From Escherichia coli 042 (lineage in GTDB: Bacteria; Pseudomonadota; Gammaproteobacteria; Enterobacterales; Enterobacteriaceae), in NCBI RefSeq assembly GCF_000027125.1, contig NC_017626.1: 64,000 nucleotides of DNA, one strand, 5' to 3'. The translations under genes were made by a program, and so were the position numbers. The notes under the pieces are model-generated. The model saw nothing but the letters and a program-made list of their open reading frames with translations, did no database searches and was not told the origin of the DNA. Of the stretch, positions 7,496-8,311 are shown piece by piece. Every line of letters begins with the position of its first letter. The first letter of the stretch is position 1.

Positions 7496-8005
7496 ATGTT
7501 TATCGGTCATCTTCCGGCTGGTTATTTAATAACTTGTACTTTAATGAAACGCTTGCCACTGATTGCTCGTCATGCGCGCTGGGCGATGGTTATTGGCTTA
7601 CTTGGGGCCGTTGCGCCCGATTTTGATCTTTTTTGGTGCTATCTGGTTGATAACGGGCAACGACATCATCATCTTTACCCGTCTCATTGGCCATTATTAT
7701 GGTTTGCTCTGCTGGCGGCGACATTAGTCTGGGCAGGAATTGCGAAGAATAAACTTCCGGCGTGGCTGGGCGTGGTGTTTTGCCTGAATAGTATCGCGCA
7801 TTTATTACTCGATACGCTGGTCGGTGATATCTGGTGGCTGATGCCTTTCGTTAACCAACCGTTTGCATTCTTTCATATTACGGCGGTACATCATCCGTGG
7901 TGGCTCAATTTTTTATTACACTGGTCGTTTTTACTGGAACTGGCATTAGTGGTTGCCGCCATTGCCATGTGGTGCAGGCGTAATGCCAAAATGGTAAATG
8001 CATGA
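7496..8005 (+). CDS. Putative polytopic inner-membrane protein, possibly a membrane-bound metal-dependent hydrolase (YdjM/DUF457-like)
   Basis: Start chosen at the ATG preceded by AAGGAA with a 5-nt spacer; several hydrophobic helices and His-rich segments (HHHLYPSHW, HLLLDTL, HHPWW). Family assignment is tentative. Confidence 0.5.
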   Translation: MFIGHLPAGYLITCTLMKRLPLIARHARWAMVIGLLGAVAPDFDLFWCYLVDNGQRHHHLYPSHWPLLWFALLAATLVWAGIAKNKLPAWLGVVFCLNSIAHLLLDTLVGDIWWLMPFVNQPFAFFHITAVHHPWWLNFLLHWSFLLELALVVAAIAMWCRRNAKMVNA

Positions 8006-8021
8006 AAAAATTATTCTGACT

Positions 8022-8264
8022 TTAAGCGGCGTAACATGTTTCCTGGGGAAATTCTCCCGTGGTTAAGTATGCTCTCCTGACTTTGCCCCAGGCTCTGAAC
8101 ATATAAAATTTCTGCTTTTCACCCTTAAGTTCTTTCACGGATTCCAGCGCAAAACCTTCTTTGGTGATCAGAAATTCTCCCCATGAAATATGGTCGCAGC
8201 TATATAAATATGCGACCTTTTCATGAGTTTCATAATGTTTTGTTATTTCGATATAGATAGCCAT
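8022..8264 (-). CDS. Small hypothetical protein (about 80 aa)
   Basis: ORF with start moved to an internal Met because the annotated N-terminus overlaps the pepD terminator hairpin; no recognisable motif. Confidence 0.25.
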   Translation of the reverse strand: MAIYIEITKHYETHEKVAYLYSCDHISWGEFLITKEGFALESVKELKGEKQKFYMFRAWGKVRRAYLTTGEFPQETCYAA

Positions 8265-8280
8265 TGGCTTCAAACAGTAG

Positions 8281-8300
8281 TCCACGCCCGCAGGCGTGGA
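8281..8300 (-). terminator. Stem-loop immediately downstream of pepD
   Basis: Perfect 8-bp GC-rich inverted repeat TCCACGCC-CGCA-GGCGTGGA, 12 nt past the pepD stop codon. Confidence 0.45.
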
Positions 8301-8311
8301 CATTATTGTAA

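What the first reader, a model, noticed from the sequence alone, without database searches (positions are those of the whole stretch)
7496..8303. Extra membrane-protein gene and a small ORF between prfH and pepD
A 170-aa polytopic, His-rich membrane protein (7496-8005) and a possible 80-93-aa ORF (8022-8264/8303) occupy a gap that, as I recall it, is essentially empty in K-12. The membrane protein resembles membrane-bound metal-dependent hydrolases (YdjM/DUF457-like), a family that includes SOS-regulated members, which would fit its position near dinB. The small ORF's annotated N-terminus overlaps the pepD terminator hairpin, so its reality is doubtful.
Basis: inference. Interest (0 to 1): 0.3.

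Follow-up and report, generated by a model that had tools for sequence, protein, structure and literature searches.

The report
Membrane hydrolase gene plus orphan immunity gene
Between prfH and pepD this E. coli strain keeps two real genes that about 94% of E. coli, K-12 included, lack: an ancestral YdjM-family membrane protein, and an 80-residue protein that is most likely a stand-alone immunity protein against a toxin that Salmonella and other bacteria inject into rivals.

Summary
An 877-bp segment (7435-8311) holds a 169-aa ORF (7496-8005, +) and a small ORF (8022-8264/8303, -). K-12 has only 56 bp here. Of 5426 complete E. coli genomes, 325 carry the segment and 5086 have the K-12-type junction.

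The 169-aa protein belongs to Pfam PF04307 (YdjM/DUF457). It has five predicted membrane helices and an invariant His/Asp cluster. It lies beside pepD in E. albertii, E. whittamii, Klebsiella aerogenes and another enterobacterium, so it is ancestral and was lost in most E. coli. It has no LexA box, whereas K-12 ydjM has a perfect one. It is not tied to rtcB-prfH.

The small ORF is real, but as 80 aa starting at ATG 8264. Evidence: dN/dS of 0.10-0.28, a family of about 52 sequence clusters, and an AlphaFold pLDDT of 95.6. Only the 13-codon extension across the pepD hairpin is spurious.

Its homologues sit directly downstream of one uncharacterised toxin domain. That domain is carried by Salmonella T6SS Rhs proteins, Gram-positive PT-TG toxins and orphan toxin arrays. 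No E. coli genome carries the toxin. The best reading is an orphan immunity gene. This is a new member of a known kind and of moderate interest. No biochemistry or expression was tested.

The parts
7447..7477 (+). Hairpin with a 13-bp stem in the prfH / YdjM-like intergenic region. It is not a canonical terminator because no U-tract follows the stem on either strand.
   Evidence: dG -24.7 kcal/mol, z -4.6, 0 of 200 shuffles fold as well. It is not listed as terminator-like.
7485..7489 (+). Shine-Dalgarno sequence AAGGA, 6 nt upstream of ATG 7496
   Evidence: Sequence. The homologue alignment begins at this Met (MFIGH/MIIGH), which excludes the in-frame ATG at 7442.
7496..8005 (+). CDS of 169 aa: a PF04307 (YdjM/DUF457) inner-membrane protein and putative metal-dependent hydrolase
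   Evidence: Pfam 35.4 bits against gathering score 29. 394 homologues carry PF04307. Invariant residues are H5, D42, D44, D52, H58, H59, H64, H102, D106, H142 and E148. AF2 pLDDT is 88 with 5 long helices. dN/dS within Escherichia is 0.23-0.58.
8022..8264 (-). CDS of 80 aa: an orphan homologue of the immunity protein of an uncharacterised polymorphic-toxin C-terminal domain
   Evidence: MAIYIEI start invariant, including in Salmonella. dN/dS is 0.10-0.28. The family has 52 representative clusters. AF2 pLDDT is 95.6. Homologues lie directly after the toxin domain. GC is 39.9% against 51-54% in the flanks.
8265..8303 (-). Non-conserved 13-codon 5' extension of the annotated 93-aa ORF. Probably not translated as part of the protein.
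   Evidence: The start codon is ACG in L019 and shifted by one codon in E. whittamii. The extension is absent in E. albertii and Salmonella.
8265..8279 (-). Junction where other Escherichia lineages carry a 171-aa membrane-protein gene (about 558 bp) between the pepD hairpin and the 80-aa gene
   Evidence: Pairwise alignment to L009 and L012. Junction alignment.
8280..8301 (-). 9-bp GC-rich hairpin just downstream of pepD, followed by a weak U-tract (UACUGUUUGA). Probably a leaky terminator that allows read-through into the 80-aa gene.
   Evidence: dG -23.8, z -3.4. The same hairpin precedes the 171-aa gene in L009.
6820..7434 (+). Left flank: intact prfH, preceded by intact rtcB2 at 5684-6823
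   Evidence: TIGR03072 328.8 bits and NF007153 637.8 bits.
8312..9769 (-). Right flank: pepD

Best explanation
The segment holds two unrelated accessory genes.

(1) Gene 7496-8005 encodes a five-helix inner-membrane protein of the YdjM/DUF457 family. It is an old enterobacterial gene that has always lain beside pepD. A short replacement, now in about 94% of E. coli including K-12, removed it. The conserved His and Asp residues all sit at the helix ends and loops on one membrane face. By the positive-inside rule that face is periplasmic. The protein therefore most likely binds a metal ion and hydrolyses a lipid-like or envelope substrate at the membrane surface. This step is inferred, not shown. 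The gene is not SOS-regulated and is not a functional partner of rtcB-prfH.

(2) Gene 8264-8022 encodes an 80-residue cytoplasmic beta4-alpha-beta protein. Its family is encoded directly after one particular toxin domain of about 120-140 aa. The toxin alignment has an invariant H-E-x-x-E and a nearly invariant R-F-D-x-D. That domain forms the C-terminal warhead of Salmonella T6SS Rhs proteins and Gram-positive PT-TG toxins, and it occurs in orphan toxin arrays. The E. coli copy has no toxin partner. It most likely acts as an orphan immunity protein that binds and neutralises this toxin when a competitor delivers it. It is probably transcribed by read-through from pepD.

Shown: homology, gene linkage, purifying selection and a confident predicted fold. 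Inferred: binding, protection and expression.
For: YdjM-like gene:
- Pfam hit above the curated cut-off; homologues all carry PF04307.
- Invariant His/Asp set; AF2 model with 5 helices, pLDDT 88.
- Same position next to pepD in K. aerogenes without rtcB/prfH, in another enterobacterium with them, in E. albertii and cryptic clades and in E. whittamii.
- 325 genomes carry the segment against 5086 with the K-12 junction.

Small gene:
- dN/dS of 0.10-0.28 with dS up to 0.67 inside Escherichia.
- The ORF is annotated as intact in all 29 sampled full-length hits spanning 95.7-100% identity.
- Profile search finds 52 full-length clusters of about 80 aa. AF2 pLDDT is 95.6.
- The Salmonella homologue (56% identical) starts 10 nt after a 1683-aa Rhs that is preceded by a DUF4123 gene, with an AAGGAG ribosome-binding site.
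- The same toxin domain lies directly upstream of family members in five other settings: a metagenome contig (46% toxin identity, stop/start overlap); a truncated remnant in L022/L023 next to a weak, sub-threshold SUKH-like ORF; orphan arrays with Tox-SHH, Tox-MPTase4, Imm26 and SMI1_KNR4, where hhalign gives 98.5% probability and E 2.4e-15 for the downstream 83-aa ORF; a Priestia PT-TG toxin plus an 83-aa ORF (membership of the downstream ORF judged by eye); and a Clostridium felsineum plasmid (membership likewise judged by eye).
- No toxin DNA is found in any of 5426 E. coli genomes, and no toxin-like ORF in the window.
- Low GC of 39.9%.
Against: - No expression data for either gene, and no consensus promoter in 5400-8500 on the relevant strands.
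- In this haplotype the 80-aa gene has lost the upstream 171-aa gene and its native ribosome-binding site. What remains (GAAGCCA-ATG) is weak.
- Within E. coli, dN/dS rises to 0.23-0.60, on very few substitutions. This fits relaxed constraint.
- More distant family members (L038-L040, L020) are not next to a toxin.
- The toxin's activity is unknown: no Pfam, NCBIfam or PDB match. The neutralisation mechanism therefore cannot be specified.
- Neither protein has an informative structural relative in the PDB.
- No member of PF04307 has a demonstrated enzymatic activity, to my knowledge.
Confidence: 0.68

Rival explanations
1. The small ORF is a decaying relic. It descends from an immunity gene but is no longer expressed or useful in E. 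coli, having lost its upstream partner gene and ribosome-binding site.
For: A 558-bp deletion relative to E. albertii and L009 removed the 171-aa gene and the native RBS. Within E. coli dN/dS is 0.23-0.60, against 0.10-0.28 between species. No promoter-like site was found. About 94% of E. coli lack the whole segment, and an ST648 strain lost part of it to IS1.
Against: The reading frame is annotated as intact, not as a pseudogene, in all 29 sampled full-length hits spanning 95.7-100% identity, and in E. whittamii and L019. dN/dS stays below 1 in every comparison. The deletion joins the gene to the translation-start region of the lost gene and does not truncate it.
Confidence: 0.2
2. The 80-aa protein works with the 171-aa membrane protein seen in E. 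albertii as a separate two-gene module, for example a membrane toxin with its antidote or an envelope-stress pair. On this reading its linkage to polymorphic toxins elsewhere is secondary.
For: In E. albertii and cryptic clades the two genes are adjacent, on the same strand and 27-35 bp apart.
Against: The 171-aa protein has no homologue next to family members anywhere else examined. It is absent from all 5426 complete E. coli genomes. In contrast, the toxin domain precedes family members in six independent settings across Gram-negative and Gram-positive bacteria.
Confidence: 0.07
3. The YdjM-like gene is an SOS-regulated damage-response gene, linked functionally to nearby dinB.
For: K-12 ydjM itself carries a perfect LexA box. 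The gene lies about 4 kb downstream of the LexA-controlled dinB operon on the same strand.
Against: No LexA-like site lies upstream of 7496. The protein shares no pairwise similarity with K-12 YdjM. Outside enterics, homologues sit in unrelated neighbourhoods.
Confidence: 0.05
4. The YdjM-like gene is a third cistron of the rtcB2-prfH ribosome-repair operon and contributes to defence against colicin E3-type toxins.
For: It is on the same strand, 61 bp after prfH, and has no recognisable terminator or promoter between them. rtcB2-prfH protects against colicin E3 (PMC9223846, PMC9304027).
Against: K. aerogenes keeps the gene beside pepD without rtcB-prfH. About 94% of E. coli have the K-12-type junction without it. 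Pseudomonas, Halopseudomonas and Burkholderiales homologues have no rtcB/prfH neighbours.
Confidence: 0.05

Closest known systems
E. coli K-12 YdjM and YbcI (Pfam PF04307, DUF457; COG1988 'membrane-bound metal-dependent hydrolase')
   Same: Same Pfam family by profile, with a similar size of 169-196 aa. All are polytopic inner-membrane proteins with conserved His/Asp residues at helix ends.
   Different: No pairwise BLAST similarity (E 0.88 and 18). This is a separate subfamily whose nearest relatives are in Klebsiella aerogenes, Pseudomonas, Halopseudomonas and Alcanivorax. It has no LexA box, unlike ydjM.
Orphan immunity genes of T6SS/Rhs/CDI polymorphic toxin systems (Vibrio cholerae orphan immunity arrays, PMC5361080; Bacteroidales acquired interbacterial defence clusters, 10.1101/471110; Rhs/CdiA orphan modules, PMC3150448)
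   Same: It is a small, AT-rich gene. It is homologous to a protein encoded directly after a toxin C-terminal domain, it sits in a genome that lacks that toxin, and it varies in presence between strains.
   Different: It is a single gene at a fixed housekeeping locus (pepD 3' end). It is not in an array, not next to a T6SS or rhs locus, and not on a mobile element. Neither the immunity family nor the toxin domain has a Pfam, NCBIfam or PDB entry. Protection has not been tested.
SUKH (SMI1/KNR4) immunity superfamily
   Same: One family member lies within about 0.6 kb of a clear SMI1_KNR4 protein (L038). Another lies next to a weak, sub-threshold SUKH-like ORF (L022). A SMI1_KNR4 gene also sits in the L041 array. 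The genomic role appears the same.
   Different: Sequence and fold are unrelated: 80 aa with a beta4-alpha-beta fold and no Pfam hit.

Membership tests
Pfam PF04307 (YdjM / DUF457) | Profile HMM score above the curated gathering threshold over most of the model | tested here: met
   35.4 bits against cut-off 29; residues 3-156 match model positions 4-166 of 176. All close homologues carry PF04307.
Pfam PF04307 (YdjM / DUF457) | Small polytopic inner-membrane protein | tested here: met
   AF2 model, pLDDT 88, with helices at 5-19, 24-50, 66-82, 87-109 and 143-168.
Pfam PF04307 (YdjM / DUF457) | Conserved His/Asp residues that could bind a metal | tested here: met
   H5, D42, D44, D52, H58, H59, H64, H102, D106, H142 and E148 are invariant in 24 sequences at 41-70% identity.
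Pfam PF04307 (YdjM / DUF457) | Metal-dependent hydrolase activity | not testable with these tools
   No solved structure or sequence relative in the PDB. The activity is a prediction for the whole family.
LexA/SOS regulon (as for K-12 ydjM) | LexA box (CTGT-N8-ACAG) in the promoter region | tested here: not met
   None between 6153 and 12103, and none matching the 20-mer consensus with up to 3 mismatches. Positive control: a perfect box at L026 3180-3195 upstream of K-12 ydjM.
Polymorphic-toxin immunity protein (Rhs / PT-TG associated) | Homologues encoded immediately downstream of, and on the same strand as, a toxin C-terminal domain | tested here: met
   Salmonella Rhs, 10-nt gap. L024, stop/start overlap. 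L041-L044, 18-nt gap, hhalign 98.5%. Priestia PT-TG toxin, 2-nt gap. Clostridium, 12-nt gap. L022/L023 toxin remnant, 5-nt gap.
Polymorphic-toxin immunity protein (Rhs / PT-TG associated) | The partner toxin domain is one homologous family borne on different delivery scaffolds | tested here: met
   Alignment A9 has invariant D83, W92, R94, L95, G98, D104, L107, H110, E111, E114 and H129. Scaffolds are Rhs, pre-toxin TG and hemagglutinin-repeat/CdiA-like.
Polymorphic-toxin immunity protein (Rhs / PT-TG associated) | Orphan status: no cognate toxin in the same genome | tested here: met
   Only the immunity part of the Salmonella toxin-plus-immunity query matches E. coli, in 310 genomes, at DNA level down to about 65% identity. 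There is no toxin-like ORF or Rhs core motif in the window. A highly diverged toxin elsewhere in the genome cannot be excluded.
Polymorphic-toxin immunity protein (Rhs / PT-TG associated) | Binds and neutralises the cognate toxin and protects against delivery | not testable with these tools
   Needs co-expression, pull-down and competition assays.
Type II toxin-antitoxin antitoxin | Adjacent cognate toxin gene in the same operon | tested here: not met
   No neighbouring ORF in the window between pepD and the YdjM-like gene other than the 80-aa gene. No PADLOC or Pfam TA hit.
rtcB2-prfH repair operon (accessory gene) | Co-occurrence with rtcB-prfH across genomes | tested here: not met
   Present without rtcB/prfH in K. 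aerogenes. Absent from about 94% of E. coli. No rtcB/prfH lies near Pseudomonas, Halopseudomonas or Burkholderiales homologues.

The most novel reading that the evidence does not exclude
The 80-aa family and its partner domain may define a polymorphic toxin-immunity pair that has not yet been described. The toxin domain has an invariant H-E-x-x-E, a nearly invariant R-F-D-x-D, and no Pfam, NCBIfam or PDB entry. The pair is shared between Gram-negative T6SS Rhs effectors, Gram-positive PT-TG toxins and, in divergent form, CdiA-like proteins. On this reading a minority of E. coli lineages, with E. albertii and E. whittamii, keep a chromosomal orphan immunity gene that gives standing protection against Salmonella T6SS attack. 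That gene lies about 600 bp from the rtcB2-prfH module that repairs colicin E3 damage, so the locus would be a small islet of defence against bacterial toxins.
Probability: 0.3. Interest if true: 0.5.

Novelty: new member of a known kind. Interest (0 to 1): 0.36.

Why it matters
The result turns a RefSeq 'hypothetical protein' that looked like an annotation artefact into a testable orphan immunity gene. It also corrects the start codon of that gene. In doing so it exposes a toxin domain and an immunity family that current domain libraries do not cover.

If the gene protects, it is a strain-variable determinant of how some E. coli lineages survive contact with T6SS-armed Salmonella in the gut. 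ST69 is among the carrier strains.

The YdjM-like gene shows that K-12 and most E. coli lost an ancestral enterobacterial membrane protein. It also gives a third, SOS-independent PF04307 paralogue with which to study this uncharacterised family.

Tried and rejected
- A literature hit for 'DUF457' with 64 occurrences turned out to be DUF4579 of the CRISPR effector Cap1, matched as a word prefix. It is irrelevant.
- PADLOC, PHROGs and NCBIfam gave nothing for either protein.
- Pfam, NCBIfam and PDB sequence searches gave nothing for the toxin domain or the 171-aa ORF.
- The LexA-box search upstream of 7496 was negative, with a positive control.
- An operon link to rtcB-prfH was rejected on synteny.
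- The genome contigs and metagenome scans with the family alignment returned only 3 and 5 loci, because few columns are conserved enough for pattern search.
- No paper cites the RefSeq accessions.
- The plasmid search for the 80-aa protein found only a chromosome mislabelled as a plasmid.
- My dN/dS comparison with the K. aerogenes gene is invalid because the sequences were not aligned for indels. I ignored it.
- The phylogroup of the carrier strains was not determined.

Full report
**Locus.** The window is an E. coli chromosome. The local gene order is dinB, yafN, yafO (split by an internal stop), yafP, rtcB2 (5684-6823), prfH (6820-7434), a 169-aa ORF (7496-8005, +), a small ORF (8022-8264/8303, -), pepD (8312-9769, -), gpt and frsA. 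RefSeq annotates the two ORFs in a strain identical over this stretch as 'metal-dependent hydrolase' and 'hypothetical protein'.

**Presence and absence.** In K-12, prfH and pepD are 56 bp apart. That spacer holds a different, REP-like hairpin. Divergence from the window starts in the last codons of prfH and ends at the pepD stop codon. Megablast against 5426 complete E. coli genomes finds the 877-bp segment in 325 and the K-12-type junction in 5086. One ST648 strain lost part of the segment through IS1. One assembly, HS-02, shows a homopolymer-ridden 420-bp stretch in its place.

**The 169-aa protein: family.** It passes Pfam's curated threshold for PF04307, YdjM (35.4 bits against 29). A Shine-Dalgarno sequence (AAGGA) lies 6 nt before ATG 7496. 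Homologues all begin MFIGH/MIIGH, which fixes the start. About 400 homologues were found, all carrying PF04307. The nearest named ones are from Klebsiella aerogenes (59%), then Halopseudomonas, Pseudomonas, Alcanivorax and betaproteobacteria at 44-56%. There is no pairwise BLAST similarity to the two K-12 family members YdjM and YbcI, so this is a third subfamily.

**The 169-aa protein: structure and likely function.**
- In 24 sequences, H5, D42, D44, D52, H58, H59, H64, H102, D106, H142 and E148 are invariant.
- The AlphaFold model (pLDDT 88) has five long helices.
- Every invariant polar residue falls at a helix end or loop on the same membrane face.
- The opposite face carries the Arg/Lys-rich loops and the C-terminal tail, so I infer that the His/Asp cluster faces the periplasm.
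- No solved structure is related by sequence or fold.

'Metal-dependent hydrolase acting at the membrane surface' therefore remains the family-level prediction, not a result.

**The 169-aa protein: history and regulation.** The gene lies directly beside pepD in several lineages:
- K. aerogenes, which has no rtcB-prfH and no small ORF;
- an unnamed enterobacterium with dinB-rtcB-prfH;
- E. albertii and cryptic-clade strains;
- E. whittamii.

Presence is therefore ancestral and the K-12-type junction is a derived loss. Outside the Enterobacteriaceae the neighbourhoods are unrelated, so the gene has no conserved partner.

No LexA-box-like site lies upstream. The same pattern finds dinB's box at 3198 and a perfect box 17 nt before K-12 ydjM. 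The SOS idea is not supported. A 13-bp-stem hairpin (7447-7477) separates prfH from the gene. It has no U-tract on either strand, and no promoter-like site was found. Read-through from prfH is therefore possible but untested.

**The small ORF is real, at 80 aa.** Homologues exist in E. coli, E. albertii, E. whittamii, other Escherichia clades and Salmonella enterica (56% identity).
- All share the start MAIYIEI.
- The 13-codon extension reaching ATG 8303 inside the pepD hairpin occurs only in some Escherichia. Its start codon is ACG in one lineage and shifted by a codon in another.
- Nei-Gojobori dN/dS for the 80 codons is 0.10-0.28 in every usable pair, with dS up to 0.67 within Escherichia.
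- A profile search of 1.84 billion representative proteins finds 52 clusters, nearly all 77-82 aa and aligned end to end.
- AlphaFold gives pLDDT 95.6 for a beta4-alpha-beta fold.
- No Pfam, PDB-sequence or fold relative exists.

**What the small protein does.** The Salmonella homologue starts 10 nt after the stop of a 1683-aa Rhs protein. That Rhs is preceded by a DUF4123 gene (by established knowledge a T6SS adaptor family) and ends in a unique 141-aa domain after the DPxGL core. An AAGGAG ribosome-binding site precedes the homologue. This is the canonical immunity position. In two other Salmonella genomes the homologue follows an orphan copy of the same C-terminal domain.

The same toxin domain precedes family members in five further independent settings:
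- a metagenome contig, 46% toxin identity, with stop/start overlap;
- a truncated toxin remnant 5 nt upstream, in a locus that also has a weak, sub-threshold SUKH-like ORF;
- orphan arrays with Tox-SHH, Tox-MPTase4, Tox-ART-HYD1, Imm26 and SMI1_KNR4 genes, where hhalign places the downstream 83-aa ORF in the family with 98.5% probability and E 2.4e-15;
- a Priestia filamentosa 'pre-toxin TG' protein followed by an 83-aa ORF that I assign to the family by eye;
- a Clostridium felsineum plasmid protein followed by an 81-aa ORF that closely resembles family member P0177, again assigned by eye.

A Rhizobium hemagglutinin-repeat protein carries a divergent copy of the domain with an unrelated downstream ORF. 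The toxin alignment has invariant D83, W92, R94, L95, G98, D104, L107, H110, E111, E114 and H129. It matches no Pfam, NCBIfam or PDB entry. One toxin domain on several delivery scaffolds, always followed by the same small protein family, is the signature of a polymorphic toxin-immunity pair (PMC3150448).

**Orphan status.** No complete E. coli genome matches the toxin part of the Salmonella query at DNA level. Only the immunity part matches, in 310 genomes. The window has no toxin-like ORF and no Rhs core motif. The gene's GC is 39.9%, against 51-54% in the flanks. The E. coli gene is therefore best read as an orphan immunity gene. Such genes are known to protect against T6SS toxins in other bacteria (10.1101/471110, PMC5361080, PMC12247911).

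**Local history of the small gene.** E. albertii and some cryptic-clade strains carry a 171-aa ORF between the pepD hairpin and the 80-aa gene. It has a soluble N-terminal part and C-terminal membrane helices, and it hits no known family. It is absent from all 5426 complete E. coli genomes. The window, E. whittamii and another lineage lack these roughly 558 bp. That places the 80-aa start codon just after the pepD hairpin, next to sequence resembling the start region of the lost gene. The hairpin has only a weak U-tract. I infer expression by read-through from pepD.

Within E. coli, dN/dS is 0.23-0.60 on very few changes. Some relaxation of constraint, or silence of the gene, cannot be excluded. 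This is the main rival explanation.

**Verdict.**
- Family assignment of the membrane protein: right.
- SOS link: wrong.
- Doubt about the small ORF: wrong, except for its extension.

Both genes are already annotated in RefSeq, and orphan immunity genes are a known kind. The new elements are the functional assignment, the corrected start codon, and an uncatalogued toxin-immunity family. Nothing here tests binding, protection, expression or enzymatic activity.

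Noticed in passing
window 4633-5031: The toxin gene yafO is split by an internal stop (ORFs 4633-4830 and 4852-5031), while the antitoxin gene yafN (4337-4630) is intact. RefSeq marks yafO as a pseudogene in a strain identical over the segment.
   Followed up: partly
window 5684-7434: rtcB2 and prfH are both intact (NF007153 637.8 bits, TIGR03072 328.8 bits), whereas K-12 has only pseudogene remnants (ykfJ, prfH). This pair repairs colicin E3-damaged ribosomes (PMC9223846, PMC9304027).
   Followed up: partly
L009 5458-5973; L012 5450-5965: E. albertii and cryptic-clade Escherichia carry an extra 171-aa ORF between pepD and the 80-aa gene. 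It has a soluble N-terminal half and C-terminal membrane helices, and no family match. It is absent from all 5426 complete E. coli genomes, and its function is unknown.
   Followed up: partly
window 7496-8264 compared with L009 6001-6769: Between these two lineages, synonymous divergence is 0.55 for the 80-aa gene but only 0.13 for the adjacent YdjM-like gene, and pepD is about 98% identical. This suggests a mosaic or recombinant history for the small gene.
   Followed up: no
window 7447-7477: A strong 13-bp-stem hairpin (dG -24.7 kcal/mol, z -4.6) lies between prfH and the YdjM-like gene. It has no U-tract on either strand, and its role is unknown.
   Followed up: partly
L002 3638-4057 (E. 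coli HS-02): In place of the segment there is a 420-bp stretch full of homopolymer runs that faintly resembles the YdjM-like gene. It is either a decayed remnant or a low-quality assembly.
   Followed up: no
L008 2262-2534: The main Rhs of one Salmonella genome ends in a distant relative (about 32-38% identity) of the same toxin domain, but is followed by an unrelated 167-aa ORF. This may be a second immunity type for this toxin fold.
   Followed up: no
L046 2501-3189 (Rhizobium hidalgonense plasmid): A hemagglutinin-repeat (CdiA-like) protein carries a divergent copy of the toxin domain, followed by an unrelated 109-aa ORF.
   Followed up: no
L016 4962-5897 (E. coli ST648 isolate): An IS1 insertion with an adjacent deletion removed the 3' part of the 80-aa gene, the YdjM-like gene, prfH, rtcB and part of yafP.
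   Followed up: no
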